Position numbers and translations under genes: made by a program
Origin: Nitrospirota bacterium
GTDB taxonomy: Bacteria; Nitrospirota; UBA9217
Assembly (NCBI GenBank): GCA_963737155.1
Contig: CAVTRN010000002.1
Location: 1,728,001-1,792,000 of the forward strand
DNA length: 64,000 bases
Direction: 5' to 3'
Notes under the pieces: generated by a model
Database searches by the model: none
The model's input: the letters and a program-made list of their open reading frames with translations, nothing else
Told to the model about the DNA's origin: nothing
Part shown: positions 9,625 through 47,057 of the stretch, piece after piece
How the letters are laid out: every line of letters starts with the position of its first letter
Position numbering within the stretch: the first letter of the stretch is position 1

Positions 9625-12309
9625 TCAATGAGCTTCATCCCAGTTTTTGCCCACACCCATATCGACTTTAATAGGTATTGAAAGCGCAAGCGCACCTTCC
9701 ATCTTTTCCTTGACAAGCTGTTTCATGGTCTCAATTTCGTCATCCGGTACCTCGAATACCAACTCATCATGGACCTGGAGGATCATTTGTGACCGTAATT
9801 TCCGCTGCTTCAACTCGGATTGGATGTTGATCATGGCCAACTTGATCAAGTCCGCCGCGGTACCCTGTATCGGGGTATTTACGGCAGTGCGCTCCCCGAA
9901 GCTTCGTACCGCCGCTGTTGAGGACGCTATCTCCGGGATGAACCTGCGTCTACCGAAAAGCGTGGTTACATACCCCTTTGTCTTCGCATCGCTTATGATT
10001 TGGTTTATGAATTCGCGGACCCGTGGATATCGCGAAAAATAGCTGTCGATGTAGCGCTTGGCCTCGTTGTTCGAAACGCCGATGTCCTGAGCGAGTCCGA
10101 AAGCGGAAATGCCGTAGATGATCCCGAAATTAACGGCCTTGGCCTTTCGTCGCATTTCGGACGTTATTTCCTCCGGTGCAAGACTGAAAATCTCGGACGC
10201 GGTGCGAGTGTGAATGTCCTCGTCCTCCTGGAATGTCTTGATAAGGGCTGTATCTCCGCTTAAATGGGCGAGAATTCGCAGTTCGACCTGTGAATAATCG
10301 GCCGAGAGCAGACTTGCGCCAGGCTCCGCAATAAAGGCCCTCCTGATTTCACGGCCCAAGTCGGTGCGAATGGGAATATTCTGGAGGTTCGGATCACTGC
10401 TCGATAGCCTGCCGGTCGCTGTCACGGTCTGATTGAGCGAGGTGTGGAGTCGGCCTGTCCGGGGATTGATCATGGCAGGAAGCGCGTCGACATACGTGGA
10501 CTTTAGTTTTGCGAGTGTCCGGTATTTCAGGATTTCGGCCGGGAGTGGATGGATATGGGCAAGTTCCTCGAGAACATCCACGTTCGTCGAGAATCCCGTT
10601 TTTGTTTTCTTCTGGGGTGCAAGCTGGAGTTTACCGAATAGGATTTCCGCGAGCTGTTTCGGAGAATTGATGTTGAAGGTCATGCCGGCCAGCTCATAGA
10701 TAATTATTTCTATATTGTTGATCTCCCGTTCGAGCTTGTGCGAGATGGCATTGAGAACAATAGGGTCGATCTTTACCCCCGCTCGCTCCATGTCCGCGAG
10801 CACTTCCATGAGAGGCATCTCGAGTTCACGAAACAGCTTGTCGAGATTTTGCTCCTGCAGCATTTGAGCCAACTTCTGCTTGAGCCGCAAGGCGATATCC
10901 GCATCTTCCCCGGAGTAGCGTGTTGCCGTCTTTACATCAACAGCAGAGAAACTGATCTGTTTTTTACCGGTCCCGGTGACTTCAGCGTAAGTAATGGTTT
11001 TGTAGTTGAGGTACTCGAGCGCAATCGCATCCAGACCATGGGAAGGTTTTCCAGGGTTGAGCAGGTACGAGGCGATCATGGTATCGAACGAAATACCTTG
11101 CACTGCGATTGCATAGTTGCTAAGCACGAGAAGGTCGTATTTTATATTTTGCCCAATTTTTTTTATTGCCGGATTTTCCATGAGGGGCTTAAGCGCTGTC
11201 AGTGCATGATCTGTGGTTATCTGGTTCGGTGCACCGGGATACTTGTGGCCTAGGGGAAGATAATATGCCTTGTGATGCGTCAGGGAAAAGGAGATGCCAA
11301 CAAGCTCGGCTTGGAGGGGATCAAGAGACGTTGTTTCAGTGTCGAAACAGAATTCCTCGGCTGTGGAAAGGGCATGGAGAAGACTCTGTAACGTGGATTC
11401 TTCCAGAATTGTTATATATGTTGCCTCCTGATCAGGTTCCAGGGCAACATACTTCAAGAGCGCAGTAAACTCGAGCTCTTTCAAGAGTCCTAGAAGAGCG
11501 GCACTGTCTGGCGGCTTCATTTTCAGGCGTTCATAATCCACGTCCAATGGAACATCGGATCTCAGCAGGGCAAGTTCACGGCTCAGACGGGCTATATGCG
11601 CGAACTCCCTCAGCGACTCCCTGAGTTTTGGCCTTTTAATTTCGTCGGCGCGCGCGAGAAGATTTTCGATTGTACCATACTCCTTGATGAGCGTCTGTGC
11701 AGTTTTCTCGCCAATGCCGGGTACTCCGGGAATGTTATCCGACGCGTCTCCCATTAGTCCCATGATTTCCACGACGCGATCCGGCGGTACGCCGAATCGT
11801 TCTTCTACATCCTTTGATTCGTACACTTTTTCCTTAAGTGTGTCGTAAACCCTGATATGGGGGCCGATGAGCTGAAGGATGTCTTTATCGCCCGTGACTA
11901 TCGTGATATCCATCCGCTGGGCCTCGGCTTTGCGGGCCAGGGTAGCGATAACATCGTCGGCTTCCTGGCCTTCCTGGATGAATACAGGGATGCGGAACGC
12001 ATCAACCAGTCGGTGAATATAGGGAATTTGCGGGACAAGATCAATGGGCATGGGAGGGCGATGCGCCTTATAATCCTTGAATTCCAGATGTCTCCGTGTG
12101 GGACCTTTAGGGTCAAATACGACAGCAAGAAATTCTGGATTTTTTTCCTTGACGACTTTGAGTAGCATATTAGCGAATCCGAAAACAGCATTTGTCGGCA
12201 GACCCGACGAGGTGGAGAGCCCTCGGATAGCATAAAAGGCGCGGTAGATGTAAGAATTTCCATCTATAATGTAAAAAATATCAGTCCTGCTATCCCGAGT
12301 ATTTCCCAT
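9625..12309 (-). CDS. polA: DNA polymerase I
   Basis: 5'-3' exonuclease (DGNSYIYRAFYA, EADD), 3'-5' exonuclease FDTETT, polymerase motifs DYSQVELR, AKAVNFGIIYG, QVHDEL. Confidence 0.98.
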   Translation of the reverse strand: MGNTRDSRTDIFYIIDGNSYIYRAFYAIRGLSTSSGLPTNAVFGFANMLLKVVKEKNPEFLAVVFDPKGPTRRHLEFKDYKAHRPPMPIDLVPQIPYIHRLVDAFRIPVFIQEGQEADDVIATLARKAEAQRMDITIVTGDKDILQLIGPHIRVYDTLKEKVYESKDVEERFGVPPDRVVEIMGLMGDASDNIPGVPGIGEKTAQTLIKEYGTIENLLARADEIKRPKLRESLREFAHIARLSRELALLRSDVPLDVDYERLKMKPPDSAALLGLLKELEFTALLKYVALEPDQEATYITILEESTLQSLLHALSTAEEFCFDTETTSLDPLQAELVGISFSLTHHKAYYLPLGHKYPGAPNQITTDHALTALKPLMENPAIKKIGQNIKYDLLVLSNYAIAVQGISFDTMIASYLLNPGKPSHGLDAIALEYLNYKTITYAEVTGTGKKQISFSAVDVKTATRYSGEDADIALRLKQKLAQMLQEQNLDKLFRELEMPLMEVLADMERAGVKIDPIVLNAISHKLEREINNIEIIIYELAGMTFNINSPKQLAEILFGKLQLAPQKKTKTGFSTNVDVLEELAHIHPLPAEILKYRTLAKLKSTYVDALPAMINPRTGRLHTSLNQTVTATGRLSSSDPNLQNIPIRTDLGREIRRAFIAEPGASLLSADYSQVELRILAHLSGDTALIKTFQEDEDIHTRTASEIFSLAPEEITSEMRRKAKAVNFGIIYGISAFGLAQDIGVSNNEAKRYIDSYFSRYPRVREFINQIISDAKTKGYVTTLFGRRRFIPEIASSTAAVRSFGERTAVNTPIQGTAADLIKLAMINIQSELKQRKLRSQMILQVHDELVFEVPDDEIETMKQLVKEKMEGALALSIPIKVDMGVGKNWDEAH

Positions 12310-12748
12310 AGGTTATGAGTATATCGTATCTGGATTCAAAACACAACGGGAGACCGGCGTAGCAACATTGAGTGTCTGAAACTATGCGAACTATCGCGAA
12401 GATTGCAGGCAGGGGAAGAGATGCTTGTCATAGAACGGCGTCATTTTAAAATGATTCTCGACGATACTAGGTGAGCGGTTCCGGTCAGGCAGCGAACCAA
12501 TTAACTGCTTGGATTACTTTGGATAGTAGATAATACGTATGGTCAAAATGGTACATAGCTGAAAGAATTGAAAGAACGGCTTGTTTATTTGGTGGTTTTC
12601 GCTCAAGGTGCTCACTATCGCTCTATCTAATCGATCACTATTAAATAGTCATAAAATTAATTCTCTGATATATCAATATTATAAGTCTTTTTTTATTAGG
12701 TATCCTTTTTGCAGTTTCATAAAAAAATATCCTTATTGTGAGGCAGTT

Positions 12749-13015
12749 ATGGAATGTAACGTGCAGAACGCAAATTATGAGAGAGTTATGGCCGTCATGG
12801 AGAAATTCCTGAAGGAGCGGTCTCATAACATCTGCAGCTGCCCACGGTGCATGAACGATATTGCAGCTATTGCCCTGAACTTTTTGCCCCCTCATTATTT
12901 CGTCATAACTAATGGAGCAAATGCGGTGGGCTCCCCTTGGGTTATGATTGAAACCGCTGTTGTTGAAGCAATTGACCGTGTGTCAGAAAAACCGAATCAC
13001 TCTCACAAGAAGTGA
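12749..13015 (+). CDS. ComFB family (late competence development) protein
   Basis: CSCPRCMNDIAAIALNFLPPHY and terminal KPNH match the ComFB pattern; start at ATG 12749. Confidence 0.8.
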   Translation: MECNVQNANYERVMAVMEKFLKERSHNICSCPRCMNDIAAIALNFLPPHYFVITNGANAVGSPWVMIETAVVEAIDRVSEKPNHSHKK

Positions 13016-13268: not shown

Positions 13269-13343
13269 GCCGACGTAGCTCAGTGGTAGAGCAGCTGATT
13301 CGTAATCAGCTGGTCGGAGGTTCAACTCCTCTCGTCGGCTCCA
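13269..13343 (+). tRNA. tRNA-Thr(CGT)
   Basis: Cloverleaf: acceptor GCCGACG/CGTCGGC, anticodon arm GCTGA-TTCGTAA-TCAGC, T arm GGAGG-TTCAACT-CCTCT, encoded CCA. Confidence 0.97.
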
Positions 13344-14438: not shown

Positions 14439-14483
14439 GTAATCAGCTGGTCGGAGGTTCAACTCCTCTCGTCGGCTCCATTT
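14439..14483 (+). repeat. Exact copy of the tRNA-Thr 3' half (att site)
   Basis: GTAATCAGCTGGTCGGAGGTTCAACTCCTCTCGTCGGCTCCATTT is identical to 13302-13346 and is followed by the IHF-like TATCAAGCACTTA. Confidence 0.95.
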
Positions 14484-20774: not shown

Positions 20775-20806
20775 TAATCCTCGAGAGAATCCGGATCAAA
20801 GGATAA

Positions 20807-20835
20807 AGGTTCAATTCCTCTCGTCGGCTCCATTT
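20807..20835 (+). repeat. tRNA-Thr 3'-end copy (att site)
   Basis: AGGTTCAATTCCTCTCGTCGGCTCCATTT, one mismatch to the tRNA; followed by TATCAAGTATTT. Confidence 0.9.
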
Positions 20836-37443: not shown

Positions 37444-38038
37444 GAACGCCGCGACAGGAACGTCTTCCAGACGAAGGGCAGAAAAACCAAGGAATGGATC
37501 GCGAACTGAATTGATGCATGCTGCGACCAATATTCCGCAACCTCTTAATTTGGTCGCATCTGCATGATTGTAAGTGCAATCGATTTTCAAACAATAAAAG
37601 CGAAGGTGTAGAATACATTTTTGTATCATTACATTTTGCGATAAAGTTTTCTGTTAACGACTCCATCCTCTTCGAAGCTGTCATTTTCTCTATTCGCTGA
37701 CACTCTTATATTTAAAACCAAAGCGACAGACCGGGTATAGACCGAAAAGGGAACTTGTTGTTAAATCAGTCCTCGAACAGATGTTAACCAAGAGTGACCG
37801 CCAACAGGATTGCTTTGGCAATGTTATTTGATCCTGAATTATTATTTTGTGCCATTCCTTGCAACTCATCAACTCTCAACCTGACTCTTGCAACATACGT
37901 TTTCAAATTTCATTAGATTACCCTTAAGGTTTCTACATTTCTCGACAAAATTCAGGGAAATCGTACCATGAGCGATTGCGCATCAGGCATTTATACCCTC
38001 GGCCCATGTAATTCTTTCTGGATTACACACTCTCCCTC

Positions 38039-40486: not shown

Positions 40487-40854
40487 TGCTCCCCCCGTCA
40501 AGTAGACCGCCATACTGTGGCCGCGCTACGCGTAACCGTGTCGCCATTCGCAAGCTCCCGGAGAGCGCGGTGCGTTTTATTGTTTTATGCGGCAATAAGG
40601 AATTCCCATTAGATACGAGAGCCAATAATCAAGGTGGATCATAAAACCAGGTTCACCATATCTCACGTGCATGATGATAGGAAGAACCTTTAACATGATT
40701 GCGTAAATTATAAATCAATTTTGAAAGGAAAAGAATAGAAGAAGGGGATACCTTTTTTATATGAATCCAGAATCATTAAGGATTGAGACGACATCTTTAC
40801 GTTGGACTCAATCCTTATTGATTGGCATTCAGCTACCTATTTTCCCCTAATCGT

Positions 40855-41030
40855 CAAAGCATCAGGGATCAACGGTGACCGATGGCTACTTCTCTGCAAG
40901 CAACGCCCAGGAAAACCACTGGGTGGCCGCGCGCCTGCCATCCAACAGTCCAAGCTCCGCGAGCATAAAAGCACCTGTGCAAATCGCGCCAAACCTAGTC
41001 GCTCCCTTGGCGCAACGGGCGGTCCAGTGG
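40855..41030 (-). pseudogene. Internal fragment of a GlxA-family (DJ-1/PfpI-AraC) regulator
   Basis: Manual translation RFGAICTGAFMLAELGLLDGRRAATQW..EK*PSVTVDP matches the xCTGAFxLAxAGLLDGRxATTHW motif; contains stops. Confidence 0.75.
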
Positions 41031-41777
41031 CGCACCGCCAGTTCCCAGGTCGTCGGAATACCCGGCCTTCAGGCGAGACCACTGGGCGATGGGACGTCCA
41101 TCAGTACGATAATTGTGCTCGCCTTCCGGCCGTTGCGGCCATCCAGTCGGCGAGTCCTCCCACCTCTCCTGCCGCCCGTAGACGGTCAAGTCGAGCAACC
41201 GATAGCTGTTATCCATCGCCTCGACGCCGCGCCCATTCGTCCAGTAAGTCTCATAGACATTGGATCTTTGCCGCAGGTAACAAACGAGGTGAAACATGCC
41301 CACCCGGCGTCCAACCAACAGAGTATCGAGCGAGTCCCGGACCGAGTACCAAGGCATCTCCCAGCCCATGAAGTTGCGGTACAAGACGCTCTCTTCGTAA
41401 GGGCCCTGGCAAAAGGTTGTGTAGGTGACGTCGCGAGAATGAATATAGGACAGCTCGCGGACCTGCGATGTATAGAAGGTGCACCCCTCGCACTGCTCCG
41501 CCGCAGGTTGGCCGGTGTGCCACATGAAGTAGTAGGCAATGAGCATCCGGCGTCCCTCAAACACATCCAACAGTGTTACCGCTCCATGTTCGCCAATGAG
41601 CGGTGTCGCACCATCAACCTCGACCATGGGGAGCCGTCTGCGGACAGCTGCAATGGCATCGCCTTCTCTTGTGTGAGCCTTTTCTCGAACCCGCAATGCG
41701 TCTAGATCCGCTTGAAAGGTTTTCCGATCGACTACCTTAGGGACTCCTGATCTCTGAAGCTTGTCTTGCGAACTCAT
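40995..41777 (-). CDS. DUF899 family thioredoxin-like protein
   Basis: LRVREKAHTREGDAIAAVRRRLPMV, FEGRRMLIAYYFMW, CEGC, LLDLTVYGRQERWEDSP. Confidence 0.9.
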   Translation of the reverse strand: MSSQDKLQRSGVPKVVDRKTFQADLDALRVREKAHTREGDAIAAVRRRLPMVEVDGATPLIGEHGAVTLLDVFEGRRMLIAYYFMWHTGQPAAEQCEGCTFYTSQVRELSYIHSRDVTYTTFCQGPYEESVLYRNFMGWEMPWYSVRDSLDTLLVGRRVGMFHLVCYLRQRSNVYETYWTNGRGVEAMDNSYRLLDLTVYGRQERWEDSPTGWPQRPEGEHNYRTDGRPIAQWSRLKAGYSDDLGTGGAPLDRPLRQGSD

Positions 41778-42296
41778 GACTGCTCCTCCTCTTTAAGATT
41801 GTGTCGTTCTGCCCCATCGAAGAAGAATTGCAACCTGGCTTATAACTTTACTAATTCTCCACAAGATATTGATTTAGAAAAGGAAAAGGTTGTCGATGCG
41901 ATATACTAAAAGTGAATGCTTTAGATAAGTATGATGAGAGATTGCACAATTGTCAAGTGGACAACGGTGCGACGACATATACCGATAGTTTTAGTTGCGG
42001 ATACAATTTTAAAGTGAATTATGCATTATGGACTTAGATACGACTGATACAGAGTTCAGCTTGTATCCGATGATTGTTTCCATTTTTTGAAATAAAAGGA
42101 TTGATGTGAATTTTGATCATAGAGCGGGTTAAGATGTCCTCAACTGTCAATGTTGGGATATTTCATCTATAACAAAGGTGTACTGAAACTGATAAAGTTC
42201 GGAGTTTTCTCGAGCTTATTCATTGTACTCCACGGTGGAGTATTTTAGGCCGTATAACATAGCAAAAAGAAAAGCAAATCCAAATTACCATGCAAA

Positions 42297-42381
42297 TCGT
42301 AATCAGCCGATCTGAGGCTAAACTTCTCTAGTAAGCTATATTTTTTCTGATAGTTGCAAACATTTCCGAGAATTTACTTTA
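42297..42381 (+). repeat. Decayed copy of the tRNA-Thr 3' half plus its downstream flank
   Basis: Ungapped manual alignment to 13300-13384: 64 of 85 positions identical. Confidence 0.8.
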
Positions 42382-42506
42382 TACAAAACTTAACACCAAC
42401 CATGTACCTGTAAAACCTCTTTATGCGGTCATCAGTTGGCTAGTAAGTTCTTGAAGAACATGGCTCTTTTGCTTCGCTGCATTTAACATCATTGGTTGAA
42501 AATTTG

Positions 42507-42515
42507 TGGTATACT
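42507..42515 (+). promoter_or_regulatory. Extended -10 promoter candidate for the ncRNA
   Basis: TG-G-TATACT ending 5 nt before the first base of the closing stem. Confidence 0.55.
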
Positions 42516-42520
42516 TATAT

Positions 42521-42815
42521 CGGCGTTGCGAAACTGACGAAGCATTAACCGTATTTTTAACATTAGTTGAGGGTCTGAGGTATCAATCCGGCGTGATCCG
42601 AAATCGACAAACAGCAGTACATGCTCGCTGTGAACTGTCGGTTATCAGGTCAACGAGGTATGGATATCGGAAATCCCCTGAGGCCGAAGGAGAATTTGGC
42701 GAAGGAAACGAACCGCTTCAGCAGTAGCGAGAGCGAATCACGGAAGCGATCGTGGATCTTGCTAAATATCCCGAGGTTCAACGGAATGATTAAGATACGG
42801 GTCAGAGCAACGCCG
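42521..42815 (+). ncRNA. Unidentified ~295-nt structured RNA candidate
   Basis: Ends pair (CGGCGTTGC/GCAACGCCG), at least nine further nested helices, upstream promoter, downstream terminator, no credible ORF. Confidence 0.7.
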
Positions 42816-42840
42816 TAATATTATATTGTTAAAAACAAAT

Positions 42841-42873
42841 GCCGGCAGGGTTGTTCTCCCTGCTGGTTTTTTT
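42841..42873 (+). terminator. Rho-independent terminator
   Basis: GCCGGCAGGG-TTGTTCT-CCCTGCTGGT followed by a T run. Confidence 0.85.
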
Positions 42874-43330
42874 CGTACTCTTGTCAGAGAGAACCTTTCT
42901 TGGCCGAAATGAAAGATTCTCTGTCATACTTTGAAGCTATGCCACAGGTACCGCAGATAATATTTCTCCCGCCTTACGAGTATGATAACTCTTGAGCGGG
43001 AATCACCAAAGATACCATATGCAGTCTTCTTTAATCTAAATTTGGGAAGTGATATAAAACTGATAGAATTTGTCTTTTTCGCATGACCGACTTATACTCC
43101 TTTTTAACACGTTTTATGTCTCGATCACCGGGCAGCAACTATGATCAATCGGTCAGATAATATTTGTATTTTGTTACTGTTCACCCCAATATGTTTGACC
43201 TTCTTGTTCAAGAACTTAAAGGTCCGCCGCGTCGAATAATTGACGTTGGAACTTCCTAGCATCAAATGCATTTCTAGTGGTTCTATGTGGTGGATTTTAG
43301 GAATACTGATCAGAAATATGGGAGGCTGCC

Positions 43331-43770
43331 ATGAGACAAAAAAGCGCACTTGCAGTTATTACGACAACAGTTCTGCTGGCAGTTTCGCTATTCACATATT
43401 TGACGGGATGTGGGAGGGGTGGTGGCGATGACTCCGGTTTAAAAGCAACCCCCACGTATGCCGTTATTTATGATGGTAATGGCAATACCGGCGGCAGCGT
43501 TCCAATTGACTCAAACATTTACAACCAGGGGCAGACTGTCACGGTGTTAGGGAATACAGGCAACCTTGTAAATACCGGCTATTCCTTCGTGGGCTGGAAC
43601 ACGCAAGCTAACGGATTAGGAACGACTTATACGCAGGGTCAAACCTTAACGATATATACCACAAATATCACCCTGTATGCTATGTGGACCATATAATACC
43701 ACTATGCTGTAACCTAATACCAGCAACAGCAGTACCAGCGTCAGCATCCCGCTTGACTTAACCAACGATG
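43331..43770 (+). pseudogene. Truncated lipoprotein with InlB B-repeat (Listeria/Bacteroides repeat)
   Basis: Lipobox LTGC; YAVIYDGNGNTGGSVP.D..TGYSFVGWNTQANG.GTTY..TLYAMW; a decayed second repeat follows the stop at 43696. Confidence 0.75.
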
Positions 43771-44266
43771 AAGAGGGGCAGATCGACACCGTGCAAGGCA
43801 ACACAGACGACCTCTGTGCTGCTCGTTAAAGCTTCCTCGAAATGCAGGCTAACCAGGCAGAACGAGGGCTTCGAAAAGCTTTACGAATAATACTATGAGC
43901 AAGGATAGGTGTTCGCTATCTTCCTCACTGACGATTTTACTGGTCAGGAGCCAGGTGCGATTCTCCGCATATGGAAAAATACACAGAGCTAGATTAATAT
44001 CTTCGCCTATGTACTCGTTGTCATTGTAAGAAAACGGTTTAAGGTCAATCGCAGTCTCCATGCAATTTTACAAATTCTCAGCGTAAAATAATTTTGAGAA
44101 AACAGAGATTTAAAGACGAGGGACAATCCATTAACTATCCGTAGTATTTTTGTCTTGACAAAGAGGAGCATCTTACGGCTTAATAATCTCAAGCATTTTT
44201 CTCTATGTGTTTATAAAACAGAGCCATCTGACAGGACAGAAACTTTTAATTTCGAGGGGAAACGCC

Positions 44267-45295
44267 ATGAAGCTCAAAGATCTTGCCGGCAAACTCAATG
44301 CCGAGTTGGAGGGTCCGGGAGAAATCGAGATAATCGGTGTGGCCGGCATAAACGACGCGTGTGTAGGGCTTATCACTTTCATTGACGGGGAAAATAATAT
44401 CAAGCAACTGGAACAGTCGGGTGCATCGGCTGCATTCGCGCCTCCAGATATTCCGAAACTGCGGCTGCCGCTGCTTCGAGTGAAAAATCCGCGGCTTGCT
44501 TTTGCGCAGGCAATCGAATTGTTTCATGTAAAGCCCTCCCAACCGATCGGCATAAGCGACAAGGCAATCATTGGGCAGAACTCGGTTATCGGTGTCGAAC
44601 CTTCTATTCATCCTTTTGCCGTTATTGGTGATAATGTAACGATTGGAGATAGGGTGACCCTCTATCCCGGCGTGTACATTGGCAAAGGATCGGTCGTCGA
44701 TAATGACTGCGTTGTCTACCCCAATGTGTACATCGGGCACGATGTACAGGTAGGCAAACGCGTAACCATCCACGCAGGAGCGGCAATCGGCAGCGACGGG
44801 TTCGGGTACGCGACGGAAGGCGGAATACATCACAAGATTCCGCAGGTGGGCAGAGTAATCATCGGTGACGATGTGGAGATTGGCGCCAACACTGCCATCG
44901 ATCGCGCAACCCTTGGCACGACTGTTATTAAACAAGGAACGAAAATCGACAACCTCGTTCAAATCGCACATAATGTGACCATCGGAGAGCACTGCCTTCT
45001 GATCGCTCAAGTGGGAATTTCCGGGAGCTGCACGCTTGGTGATTTTGTCGTTCTGGCAGGTCAGGTCGGCCTTGCAGACCATGTCAGTATAGGTGACCGC
45101 ACGATGGTATCAGCCCAGAGCGGCATCGTGAAAGACATCGAGCCAGGACAGATGATCGGCGGGTATTACTCCATGCCGCAAAAAGATTGGCTCAAGGTTC
45201 AGGCAATTCTTCCGAAATTGCCTGAACTTAGAAAGCATATCGCACATCTTGAAAAACAGGTACAGGAATTGAAGCAAAAAATATCGGGCGGGTAA
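44267..45295 (+). CDS. lpxD: UDP-3-O-acylglucosamine N-acyltransferase
   Basis: NPRLAFA, hexapeptide repeats, [36 protein letters not shown]. Confidence 0.95.
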
Positions 45296-45441
45296 CAAAA
45301 TTATTTAGAAAATCCCACCGAGACAAGCAGGAAACGGGGAAGTTGCACGTAAAGTTAAAGTGAAAATGAGGTTTAACAAGTCAAATAGAGATGGCGATGC
45401 CGTACAAAAATATATTTAGACTTATCAACATTTATAAAACA

Positions 45442-45579
45442 GTCCTGAAATACCCAGCAGCTTGCTGCTGGGATGAAAAGGACATCCTGGCGAAGCCAGG
45501 ATAAGTCTTCAGCTTCTTTGTTGTGCTTTTTTAAGGTTTCAAGTTCCGATGCCCCGCAGCTTGCTGCGGGGTAATTCAC
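45442..45579 (+). mobile_element. Non-autonomous IS200/IS605-derived palindromic element (PATE-like)
   Basis: Hairpins CCCAGCAG-CTTG-CTGCTGGG, ATCCTGGC-GAA-GCCAGGAT and GCCCCGCAG-CTTG-CTGCGGGGT ending in AATTCAC; no ORF. Confidence 0.7.
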
Positions 45580-46457
45580 TGTGCCAAGTCAGCGAGCTAG
45601 ATTATTTAGGCGTGCAGATCAGTTCGCCGTATTTGTTGACGGACGCCTGATAGATAAACTTCTCGTTCTTGTAGCACATACCCCTCGTGAAGCGGCTATA
45701 TTGTCACCGATATGGTACACAATAAATCTGGGTAAAAAAACTGCGTGGACAGAAAACGCCTGTTTGCCTATACATCAGGATTACTTGGCCAAGTGCTGCT
45801 TTTTCGTCATGGATACCTGGTGAAAGAAAACCGAGTATTACTAAATCAACTAAGAGACCGCTTCTGGTTTACCATTGGGGAGCGAAAGATCATCTAGAGA
45901 TTGGAAAAGCTTGACGAAAAAGACATAAGATAGGATCGCCAACATCATCCAGACCGATGATTTTTTAAGCGTGGCACCACAGGTCGATTACCCGCAAGTC
46001 TGTCGGTTCCAAAGAGTCTGCGATCTTTGCAGACTGTCAATATGTCCGAGGCTAAAAGGGTCACCAATGCTAAGGTGAAATTCAGCATCGCCGTTTTGCA
46101 TCCCATTTTCATACTGATACACCCGGGGAAGGTACGGGGGTTCCACGTTCCGCGTATATGATCCTCAAATGACGTGGGTGTGACAAGCCCTTAACCGGAG
46201 AGGAATTCAAGAAAGGTCGGCCTGTCACCATTTCTACCTAATTAATTTGGAATTACAGTCCGGGACTGTCCAGAAATGGTGCCCGAATTAAAATGTAATC
46301 GCTGTCCGCCGATCAGAATTTGCAAAGTTACTGTTGCATAATCTACAGTTTGTCAGTTCAAATCTGACTATTGGCACCGCTCAAATTCTGGCAATCTGCT
46401 GTTTACCGCTTTGGGAATTCTGCGAACAAAAACAAATGGTAACAAAAAAAATATAGG

Positions 46458-46486
46458 TTGACAGTACCAATAATTCTATTTAATAT
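46458..46486 (+). promoter_or_regulatory. Sigma70-type promoter
   Basis: TTGACA-N17-TAATAT upstream of ATG 46521. Confidence 0.6.
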
Positions 46487-46520
46487 GGCAGTTATATGAC
46501 ATTTTGAGCAAGAGGCACTG

Positions 46521-47057
46521 ATGAATCTTCCCAACTATATTACGTTACTCAGGATCGTACTCATTCCATTCTTTATCAACTTAATGATTTATGGATATGA
46601 CCGGGAAGCTCTCATAGTTTTTGTTGCAGCGTGCATCACCGATGCGCTTGATGGTCTTATTGCTCGCTTGACCAACACGCAGACAAAACTAGGAGCATTC
46701 CTTGATCCCATGGCGGACAAACTGCTTATTATCTCGGCATTCGTTACTCTCGTTCTCTTGGAAATGCTCCCTGTCTGGCTGGTAATAATCGTCGTGAGCA
46801 GAGACGTTATCCTGGTACTCGGCAGCATCGCCCTCTATTTCACAGGGCATGATTTTGTCGCGAAGCCTACTCTTATCGGGAAGACGACGACTCTGCTGCA
46901 ACTCGTAACGGTGACGCTTTCCCTGGTATTGAGAAATTACGGCACCGAGATGAGGTTGATGACCATTTTGCAATGGGGGACGGCAGGTTTTACGCTGGCA
47001 TCCGGCGTCCAGTATGTTGTTCGGGGCACAACGATTGCAGGACAGAATATTGAATGA
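46521..47057 (+). CDS. pgsA: CDP-alcohol phosphatidyltransferase (PgsA-like)
   Basis: NLPNYITLLRI, TDALDGLIAR, LGAFLDPMADK. Confidence 0.88.
   Translation: MNLPNYITLLRIVLIPFFINLMIYGYDREALIVFVAACITDALDGLIARLTNTQTKLGAFLDPMADKLLIISAFVTLVLLEMLPVWLVIIVVSRDVILVLGSIALYFTGHDFVAKPTLIGKTTTLLQLVTVTLSLVLRNYGTEMRLMTILQWGTAGFTLASGVQYVVRGTTIAGQNIE

What the first reader, a model, noticed from the sequence alone, without database searches (positions are those of the whole stretch)
42507..42873. Stand-alone ~295-nt highly structured ncRNA candidate with its own promoter and terminator
Seen: an extended -10 (TGGTATACT), then nested pairings 42521-29/42807-15 (9 bp), CTGAC/GTCAG, CCGTATTTTTAA/TTAAGATACGG, CATT/AATG, GTTGA/TCAAC and CGTGAT/ATCACG. 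These close a multibranch domain with arms AATCGACA/TGTCGGTT (containing ACAGC/GCTGT), TCAGG/CCTGA, GCCGAA/TTTGGC and CGCT/AGCG, followed by a strong intrinsic terminator. Several pairs are G-U on the + strand only, supporting that orientation. It lacks the signatures I know for RNase P, tmRNA, SRP, 6S, T-box and common riboswitches, and no gene lies before the terminator. It sits 140 bp beyond a decayed att site, where an integrase gene often lies. Inference: an undescribed mobile-element RNA, possibly an orphan IS110-type bridge/seek guide RNA or a ribozyme-derived RNA acting in trans.
Basis: partly seen in the sequence, partly recalled or inferred. Interest (0 to 1): 0.85.

Follow-up and report, generated by a model that had tools for sequence, protein, structure and literature searches.

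The report
New Nitrospira-wide structured RNA, extra copy
This is a real gene for a folded RNA of about 300 bases, and it is an extra copy of a so far undescribed RNA that nearly every sampled genome of the nitrite-oxidising Nitrospira class carries at one fixed place; what the RNA does is still unknown.

Summary
The candidate is real. Window 42521-42815 (+) folds far better than shuffles (z -4.49) and matches no Rfam 15 family, even at E<=10. Homologues exist only in the window's own class. That class holds one order and one family, 64 species genomes; named members are titled Nitrospirota or Nitrospiria.

A model of the conserved "core" form hits 62 of 64 genomes, and 32 of 32 high-quality ones. 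Outside the class it gave 1 weak partial hit in 114 genomes of the phylum. On 32 diverse copies, 70 of 93 pairs show compensatory changes (0/500 shuffles).

The core copy sits head-to-head with a TrpE/PabB-like gene in 29 of 30 loci. The window's genome has one too, at C2:3020097-3020415.

The window copy belongs to an accessory subfamily. It is a unit of about 430 bp (extended -10 promoter, RNA, terminator) with no shared flanks between genomes.

Relatives of this subfamily appear at high depth in four soil and peat metatranscriptomes.

The IS110 bridge-RNA, att-site, cis-leader and coding readings are not supported. The genome has RNase P, 6S, SRP and tmRNA elsewhere. Function is unknown; a stable trans-acting RNA-protein-type RNA is the best guess.

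The parts
42440..42506 (+). Upstream block conserved among accessory-subfamily copies (about -115 to -36 in relatives; more diverged in the window). It includes a conserved TTGACA-like hexamer (window TTGAAA, 42496-42501) only 8 nt before the -10. Probably a regulatory site.
   Evidence: Alignment A7 of 10 copies. Homology to other subfamily loci starts at about 42464-42505.
42507..42515 (+). Extended -10 promoter element TGGTATACT. The inferred transcription start is about 42521-42523.
   Evidence: TGnTATAnT is conserved in 10 of 11 copies and 12 of 12 core copies. The consensus scan did not call it, for want of a -35. The start site is inferred, not measured.
42521..42815 (+). Structured RNA body, 295 nt: closing helices P1-P4, then a three-way junction with two long arms.
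   Evidence: CM R1 match of 295.9 bits at 42517-42823. Fold z -4.49. 70 of 93 pairs have compensatory changes on 32 copies.
42521..42529 (+). P1, 5' strand (CGGCGTTGC). It pairs with 42807-42815. The sequence is nearly invariant in all subfamilies.
   Evidence: 6 of 9 pairs never vary in 32 copies; 97.9% of cells are paired. Projection on the window.
42535..42570 (+). 5' strands of P2 (42535-38), P3 (42550-55) and P4 (42563-70).
   Evidence: Helices 3-5 have changes on both sides in 11 of 14 pairs.
42571..42677 (+). Arm A: a long irregular hairpin, with distal AATCGACA/TGTCGGTT and ACAGC/GCTGT. It is shortened in the roughly 235-250-nt short forms of some genomes.
   Evidence: (helices 6-10).
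42683..42777 (+). Arm B: a long irregular hairpin holding the conserved CGCTTCA...(A/G)GAAGCG helix.
   Evidence: (helices 11-18).
42778..42815 (+). 3' strands of P4 (42778-85), P3 (42794-99), P2 (42801-04) and P1 (42807-15).
42841..42873 (+). Intrinsic terminator: a 10-bp GC-rich hairpin at 42841-42867, then TTTTTT.
   Evidence: Scan. Conserved in 8 of 11 aligned copies.

Best explanation
SHOWN
- Window 42507-42873 is a complete gene (extended -10 promoter, 295-nt structured body, intrinsic terminator) for a non-coding RNA.
- It is an accessory paralogue of an RNA family confined, as far as searched, to one bacterial class. Named members of that class are titled Nitrospirota or Nitrospiria.
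- Every good genome of that class also keeps a diverged 'core' copy at one syntenic place, head-to-head with a TrpE/PabB-like gene that is followed by an AAA/SMC-like gene, tmk, holB and a PSP1 gene.
- The fold is a Y: four stacked closing helices bring the 5' and 3' ends together and open into two long, irregular arms. P1 (GGCGUUGC/GCAACGCC) and several internal-loop and junction stretches are invariant in sequence.

INFERRED
- The RNA acts in trans as a stable, abundant RNA whose invariant P1 and loops are bound by a protein partner (or by RNA), that is, a housekeeping-type RNA-protein RNA of this lineage.
- Accessory copies such as this one are separately regulated isoforms, comparable to 6S-1/6S-2 or Y-RNA paralogues. 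They are carried on a self-contained unit of about 430 bp that lands at different loci.
- The biochemical job is not known.
For: STRUCTURE
- z -4.49.
- On 32 copies, 90.4% of cells are paired against 80.7% shuffled. 70 of 93 pairs have changes on both sides, against 35.7 shuffled (0/500). The covariation score is 0.297, against at most 0.064 for slid partners.
- G-U 273 against A-C 74 fixes the strand.

NOT A KNOWN FAMILY
- No Rfam hit on the window copy or on core copies.
- RNase P, 6S, SRP and tmRNA are found elsewhere in the genome.

DISTRIBUTION
- R1 hits 41 of 64 genomes. R2 hits 62 of 64, 32 of 32 high-quality genomes and 19 of 19 genera.
- The two misses are 71% and 68% complete.
- In the phylum sample, 36 of 36 inside the class and 1 of 114 outside (19.8 bits, partial).
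- The 6 true matches among 80 named loci are all Nitrospirota/Nitrospiria.

SYNTENY
- 9 of 21 wider loci and 29 of 30 core loci.
- The window's own genome has a core copy.

TRANS-ACTING
- It has its own promoter and terminator.
- There is no consistent downstream gene.
- There is no conserved ORF.

EXPRESSION OF RELATIVES
- In 4 of 4 RNA runs from 4 studies, short contigs 80-99% like 42661-42819 were found. Summed word depth reaches about 10,000.
- Their loose ends continue as the subfamily consensus.

PARALOGY
- The tree splits a core clade (34 rows, support 96) from an accessory clade (23 rows). The window lies in a 13-row subfamily (support 99) and is sister to a same-genus copy.
- 18 of 64 genomes have two or more R2 matches, two of them only by a partial match.
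Against: - There are no reads from this organism. One search found only small shares, and laid contigs, which cannot show ends, strand or level. They cover only the conserved 3' half.
- No silent control stretch or other Nitrospira RNA was laid for comparison.
- The strong covariation comes from an alignment fitted to the model. On the sequence-only alignment of 10 close copies only 7 pairs change on both sides (11/500 shuffles).
- No partner protein is identified. No gene is consistently linked to accessory copies.
- Accessory copies are patchy, so they are dispensable. One (G001) lacks the -10 element.
- An SD-like AAGGAG plus a TTG-started ORF of about 40 aa exists in 4 of 10 copies. Third-position variability is slightly raised (0.278 against 0.162 and 0.186).
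Confidence: 0.6

Rival explanations
1. A protein-free functional RNA: a ribozyme, or a self-assembling 'ornate' RNA of the kind of OLE, raiA, ROOL or GOLLD. The invariant junction and loops would then form tertiary contacts or an active site, not a protein site.
For: - The fold is large, multi-helix and strongly conserved, with invariant unpaired stretches.
- It is universal in the class.
- In core copies the arm-A loop GUUGAG could pair with CUCAAC next to P4, in competition with P4 itself. There is one compensatory case (GUCGAG/CUCGAC) and wobble-compatible variants.
- That such large orphan RNAs often act without protein is recalled knowledge, not a result from any call.
Against: - No similarity to any ribozyme or ornate-RNA model.
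- The loop pairing overlaps P4, is almost invariant, and has mismatched cases (L092, L045).
- Nothing in the context suggests a substrate.
Confidence: 0.15
2. A regulator that binds RNA polymerase or a global protein, in the manner of 6S or Ms1 RNA, with paralogues for different growth states.
For: - Stand-alone gene and high depth in RNA libraries.
- Differently promoted paralogues: the core copy has a leader of about 55-60 nt after its -10, while accessory copies start at P1 and have a conserved upstream block.
- In one genome a sigma-70 gene is a neighbour.
Against: - The genome already has a canonical 6S RNA (97.6 bits).
- The shape is a Y with two arms, not a rod with a central bubble.
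- There is no CsrA gene, so it is not a CsrB-type sponge. There is no Ro/TROVE gene, so it is not a Y RNA.
Confidence: 0.1
3. A guide RNA of a mobile element (an orphan IS110 bridge/seek RNA, or an omega/reRNA of IS605-type elements).
For: - The window-type subfamily shares only about 42464-42910 between genomes and lies at a different locus in each.
- One copy lies 198 nt from an IS110 element, and one lies about 390 nt from an IS605 OrfB HTH fragment.
- The window region is low in G+C and patchy.
Against: - The core form is syntenic and class-wide.
- There are 15 IS110 matches in the genome against 2 RNA copies, and none is adjacent.
- The second copy of the IS110 in G011 has no RNA beside it.
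- 28 of 30 flanking proteins are ordinary cellular genes.
- No phage, plasmid or viral-contig member was found.
- No att remnant.
Confidence: 0.03
4. A cis-acting leader, riboswitch or attenuator.
For: In one genome an accessory copy lies 68 nt upstream of, and co-directional with, a GGDEF-EAL gene (L046).
Against: - A terminator follows the RNA in 8 of 11 subfamily copies. In core copies P1 runs directly into a T tract.
- Downstream genes differ in identity and orientation.
- The core copy is transcribed away from the TrpE/PabB-like gene.
- No riboswitch model matches.
Confidence: 0.03
5. A small-protein gene, or a dual-function RNA: the ORFs 42506-42727 (73 aa) and 42621-42818 (65 aa), or the roughly 40-aa ORF after AAGGAG.
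For: ORFs exist. An SD-like motif plus TTG start occurs in 4 of 10 copies, and third positions vary slightly more.
Against: - ORF positions and frames differ between copies. One copy has no + strand ORF of 25 aa or more. By my reading of the alignment, in-frame stops and 1- to 5-nt indels break the frame; no tool tested this.
- Variation follows base pairs.
Confidence: 0.04

Closest known systems
Large orphan structured bacterial ncRNAs (OLE, raiA, ROOL, GOLLD, HEARO; Rfam families)
   Same: A stand-alone, intricately folded RNA of hundreds of nucleotides. It is lineage-restricted, supported by covariation, abundant in RNA libraries, and of unknown function at discovery.
   Different: No match to any of their Rfam models, even at E<=10. 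The taxon, size (about 300 nt) and architecture (Y with an invariant closing helix) are different. It has a syntenic core copy plus relocating paralogues. The comparison of properties is recalled knowledge.
6S RNA (RF00013) and Ms1-type RNAs
   Same: An abundant trans-acting RNA with its own promoter and terminator; some bacteria have paralogous copies.
   Different: The genome has a separate bona fide 6S RNA at C2:1131951-1132132. This RNA is branched, not a bubble-containing rod, and gives no RF00013 hit.
IS110-family bridge (seek) RNA
   Same: A structured ncRNA of a few hundred nucleotides with internal loops; the subfamily copies change locus.
   Different: It is not encoded in or beside IS110 elements. 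The main form is a fixed chromosomal gene across a whole class. It is larger than the roughly 180-nt bridge RNA (size recalled).
Bacterial Y RNAs (YrlA type) with Ro
   Same: The 5' and 3' ends are paired in a conserved closing stem; several paralogues occur per genome.
   Different: No TROVE/Ro gene in the genome, no Y-RNA model match, and it is about three times longer (size recalled).

Membership tests
Any Rfam 15 family (4227 models) | A score at or near the family's gathering threshold. | tested here: not met
   Whole window at gathering thresholds: only a tRNA at 13269. Region 42300-43000 at E<=10: nothing on the RNA. Core loci at E<=1 and E<=10: nothing on the RNA.
IS110 bridge/seek RNA | Encoded within an IS110/IS1111 element, next to its DEDD recombinase gene. 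| tested here: not met
   No transposase among the 10 window ORFs scanned. Of 15 IS110 matches in the genome, the nearest lie 147 kb and 64 kb away. The G011 IS110 is a separate element whose second copy lacks the RNA.
IS110 bridge/seek RNA | Two internal loops complementary to target and donor DNA. | not tested
   No donor or target exists to compare. Testing loops against relocated-copy junctions was not attempted.
6S RNA | An RF00013 match: a rod with a central bubble. | tested here: not met
   No hit on this RNA. 6S is found elsewhere at 97.6 bits. The consensus here is a three-way junction.
RNase P RNA / tmRNA / SRP RNA | A match to RF00010, RF00023 or RF00169. | tested here: not met
   All three are found at other loci of the genome, at 265.2, 199.9 and 74.6 bits; none lies here.
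CsrB/Rsm-type protein sponge | A CsrA partner in the genome; many exposed GGA hairpin loops. | tested here: not met
   PF02599 is not found in the 100%-complete genome. By my reading of the projected structure, the GGA motifs lie largely inside helices; this was not counted.
Bacterial Y RNA | A Ro (TROVE) protein in the genome. | tested here: not met
   PF05731 is not found.
Riboswitch / cis leader | A conserved downstream gene in the same orientation, with an expression platform. | tested here: not met
   Downstream genes differ. Terminator in 8 of 11 subfamily copies; in core copies P1 runs directly into a T tract.
The new family defined here (models R1, R2) | P1 GGCGUUGC/GCAACGCC closing about 290 nt, then P2-P4 and two arms; a full-length CM match. 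| tested here: met
   Window copy: 295.9 bits to R1 (the window copy is one of the 10 sequences R1 was built from, so this match is partly by construction) and 37.4 bits to R2, model positions 1-313 and 1-310.
Stand-alone bacterial transcription unit | A promoter element and an intrinsic terminator, conserved with the RNA. | tested here: met
   TGnTATAnT in 10 of 11 and 12 of 12 copies. Terminator called by the scan and present in 8 of 11 copies. The transcription start was not measured.

The most novel reading that the evidence does not exclude
The window copy is a paralogue of a new class of large functional RNA. This RNA would be a lineage-defining component of nitrite-oxidising and comammox Nitrospira, as fixed in place as RNase P or 6S. 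It would work as a ribozyme or as the scaffold of an unknown RNA-protein machine, possibly switching between two pairings of its GUUGAG/CUCAAC elements. Its accessory versions would spread between genomes as bare promoter-RNA-terminator cassettes, by a relocation mechanism that needs no linked recombinase.
Probability: 0.25. Interest if true: 0.88.

Novelty: categorically new. Interest (0 to 1): 0.72.

Why it matters
Nitrospira are the main nitrite oxidisers, and complete ammonia oxidisers, in soils, waters and wastewater plants; that statement is recalled knowledge. Almost nothing is known of their RNA biology: six full-text searches found no paper describing such an RNA.

A 300-nt RNA that is present in 32 of 32 good genomes, fixed in position, intricately folded and apparently abundant in soil metatranscriptomes is the profile of a functionally important RNA. 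New RNAs of that size and complexity are rare. In the past they have turned out to be ribozymes, RNA-protein scaffolds or global regulators.

The family offers two things. First, a directly testable object: two covariance models, defined ends, and cultured members. Second, a natural experiment, namely a core copy set against relocating accessory copies with a different promoter architecture. It is also a taxon-specific RNA marker for Nitrospira activity in metatranscriptomes.

Tried and rejected
REJECTED READINGS
- Known RNA family: rejected.
- RNase P, 6S, SRP or tmRNA in disguise: rejected, since all four are found elsewhere.
- IS110 bridge RNA or another mobile-element guide: rejected.
- Phage or plasmid origin: no match in either collection. 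An 18-mer scan of viral contigs gave one stretch inside an ORF with no model match, so it is a chance hit.
- att site near 42.3 kb: not found. The direct-repeat search of 40500-47000 gave only short, low-identity families.
- Coding: rejected.
- CsrB-like sponge: no CsrA. Y RNA: no Ro.

WHAT LED NOWHERE OR STAYED OPEN
- Empty-site comparison, to delimit an insertion. The neighbouring DUF899 gene occurs in only 2 of 14 other genomes of the genus. Those two share nothing else with the window apart from a 100-nt repeat, so no empty site was found.
- Pseudoknot or alternative pairing between the arm-A loop and the P4 3' flank in core copies: inconclusive, because the loop is nearly invariant.
Only 6 of the 80 listed are real. 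It therefore says nothing about other phyla.
- The look-up of sequencing runs found no run holding half or more of the words; the shares were 0.05-0.08. Parts of the stretch without cover carry no meaning.
- Covariation within the 10 closest copies alone is weak.
- One call was wasted: 'class' returned the same 64 genomes as 'order'.
- Supplementary files of papers were not consulted. Transcriptome tables of Nitrospira studies could hold this locus.

Full report
1. THE OBSERVATION

The region was read. The + strand of 42515-42873 folds to -123.6 kcal/mol, against -98.3 +/- 5.6 for 100 dinucleotide shuffles (z -4.49, none as good). The - strand reaches only z -2.48.

An intrinsic terminator (10-bp stem at 42841-42867, then T6) was found by the scan. 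The same scan called no sigma-70 promoter for the RNA. The TGGTATACT at 42507-15 is an extended -10 without a -35 at canonical spacing.

No Rfam 15 family matches, either at gathering thresholds over the whole window (only a tRNA at 13269) or at E<=10 on 42300-43000.

2. HOMOLOGUES AND STRUCTURE

The sequence is single-copy by BLAST in its own genome, which has 4.84 Mb in 2 contigs. BLAST found it in 11 of 60 relatives, all of one family, at 73-81% identity for the full-length matches.

An alignment of 11 copies shows that the extended -10 (10 of 11), the whole body and the terminator (8 of 11) are conserved together.

A covariance model R1 was built from 10 copies (313 positions, 93 pairs). 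It found matches in 41 of 64 genomes of the family, often several per genome.

On 32 matches aligned to R1:
- 90.4% of cells pair, against 80.7% after shuffling.
- 70 of 93 pairs carry changes on both sides, against 35.7 (0 of 500 shuffles).
- The covariation score is 0.297, against at most 0.064 when partners are slid by 1-3 columns.

This alignment is fitted to the model. On the sequence-only alignment of the 10 closest copies the signal is weak: 7 pairs, reached by 11 of 500 shuffles. RNAalifold on sequence-only alignments still shows 10 of 95 compensated pairs and 16 of 56.

G-U cells outnumber A-C cells 273 to 74, which fixes the strand.

Projected on the window, the structure is as follows:
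- P1: 42521-29 with 42807-15
- P2: 42535-38 with 42801-04
- P3: 42550-55 with 42794-99
- P4: 42563-70 with 42778-85
- then a three-way junction with arm A (42571-42677) and arm B (42683-42777).

Four of his inner helices are not in the consensus.

3. A CLASS-WIDE CORE COPY

Weak R1 matches (27-77 bits) turned out to lie in one syntenic place. They sit about 120-190 nt from, and are transcribed away from, a TrpE/PabB-like gene. That gene is followed by an AAA/SMC-like gene, tmk, holB and a PSP1 gene (9 of 21 wider loci).

The window's own genome has this operon and the RNA beside it. R1 scores it only 14 bits with filters off.

A second model, R2, was built from 13 such core copies. It hits 62 of 64 genomes, 32 of 32 genomes of high quality and 19 of 19 genera. 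The two misses are 71% and 68% complete. The own-genome core copy is C2:3020097-3020415, at 275.5 bits.

'Order' and 'class' return the same 64 genomes, so the class has one order and one family. In a phylum sample of 151 genomes the class scores 36 of 36. The other 23 families score 1 of 114, a partial match of 19.8 bits.

In 29 of 30 core loci the TrpE/PabB-like gene is the divergent neighbour.

Core copies have an invariant TGnTATAnT about 60 nt before P1, which implies a leader. Their P1 3' strand runs straight into a T tract.

4. THE TAXON

Of the 80 listed loci, 6 match R2 over its full length (183-299 bits). All 6 are titled Nitrospirota, Nitrospiria or Nitrospirae bacterium; the other 74 do not match.

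I infer that the class is Nitrospiria.

5. THE WINDOW COPY IS AN ACCESSORY PARALOGUE

A tree of 62 full-length copies separates a core clade (34 rows, support 96) from an accessory clade (23 rows, support 91). The window lies in a 13-row subfamily (support 99) drawn from 11 genomes, and is sister to a same-genus copy (support 98).

Between genomes this subfamily shares only about 42464-42910. No flanking DNA or protein similarity is seen within the flanks held.

A block of about 80 nt upstream of the promoter is conserved with the RNA.

18 of 64 genomes have two or more R2 matches, two of them only through a partial match. One genome has three copies in tandem beside the core locus.

6. RIVALS TESTED

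Universal RNAs. RNase P, 6S, SRP and tmRNA are all elsewhere in the genome.

Mobile element.
- None of the 10 window ORFs scanned is a transposase, integrase or reverse transcriptase.
- Of 30 proteins flanking 15 accessory copies, one is an IS110 transposase and one an IS605 OrfB HTH fragment.
- The IS110 is a 1771-bp element ending 198 nt before the RNA. Its second copy, 95% identical, has no RNA.
- The window's genome has 15 IS110 matches, none near either RNA copy.
- There is no phage or plasmid match. One viral-contig 18-mer is a chance hit.
- The tRNA-Thr 3' end recurs at 13316, 14453 and 20805 only.

Coding. ORFs are not conserved.

Sponge or Y RNA. There is no CsrA and no Ro.

7. EXPRESSION

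No run holds the stretch itself. Laid at 80% likeness or more, 4 of 4 metatranscriptome runs from 4 studies (peat and soil) hold short contigs on 42661-42819. Summed word depth is 13, about 10,000, about 12,000 and about 740. Their loose ends read on as the subfamily consensus.

These are contigs of relatives. They show presence in RNA libraries, not ends, strand or level, and no control stretch was laid.

8. LITERATURE

Six full-text searches were run: Nitrospira or Nitrospirae combined with non-coding RNA, structured RNA, covariation, sRNA, ncRNA, RNA motif and Rfam. I saw listings and the starts of abstracts only. None describes such an RNA. Supplements were not seen.

9. VERDICT

This is a genuine, previously unmodelled family of structured RNA, about 300 nt long. 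It has a class-wide syntenic core gene and relocating accessory copies, and the window holds one of the latter.

Function is inferred only in outline: trans-acting, stable, probably bound by a partner at the invariant P1 and loops.

The mobile-element reading fails. The 'undescribed ncRNA' reading holds.

Noticed in passing
window 13269-13340, 14453-14477, 20805-20829: A tRNA-Thr(CGU) gene whose last 25 bases recur exactly 1.1 kb downstream, and with 3 mismatches 7.5 kb downstream. This is the pattern of one or two elements integrated at the tRNA.
   Followed up: partly
window 45430-45580: A repeat of about 150 nt containing two palindromic hairpins, resembling a miniature transposable element. 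It has at least 12 copies at 99-100% identity on contig C2 of the genome. Half of it also lies just after the accessory RNA's terminator in genome G001 (L023:1857-1929).
   Followed up: partly
window 37560-37670: An AT-rich intergenic element of about 100 nt with some 18 diverged copies (72-80%) in the genome. It also lies near the DUF899 gene in G001 and G011.
   Followed up: partly
window 40995-41777 (-): The DUF899 gene next to the RNA is 91% identical in only 2 of 14 other genomes of the genus, with no shared flanks. Region 41.8-46.5 kb is low in G+C (0.35-0.46) and gene-poor. The RNA therefore sits in a patchwork, island-like stretch.
   Followed up: partly
L045 (G015:C90) 11686-12888: Three RNA copies in tandem (one accessory type, two core type) within 1.2 kb, directly beside the TrpE/PabB-like gene. 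A fourth lies 7 kb away, and a fifth on another contig (C93).
   Followed up: no
L034, L035, L037, L041 (G072, G005, G067, G035): Short forms of about 235-250 nt that keep P1-P4 and arm B but lack most of arm A.
   Followed up: no
L065:4339-4420 (-) = own genome, 2 kb from the core RNA: A fluoride-riboswitch-like match below threshold (26.4 bits against a gathering score of 34, E 0.0033).
   Followed up: no
L054:4705-6475 and L226:130-1901 (G011): Two copies, 95% identical, of a 1771-bp IS110-family element. One lies 198 nt upstream of the accessory RNA.
   Followed up: yes
core copies, e.g. L065:2094-2422: The invariant arm-A loop AAGUUGAG could pair with the CUCAAC just 5' of the P4 3' strand, in competition with P4. 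This may be a conformational switch. There is one compensatory case and two mismatched cases.
   Followed up: partly
core loci, about 40 nt upstream of the -10 (alignment A8): An invariant GGTCAAG motif lies in the shared intergenic region between the core RNA and the TrpE/PabB-like gene. It may be a common regulatory site.
   Followed up: no
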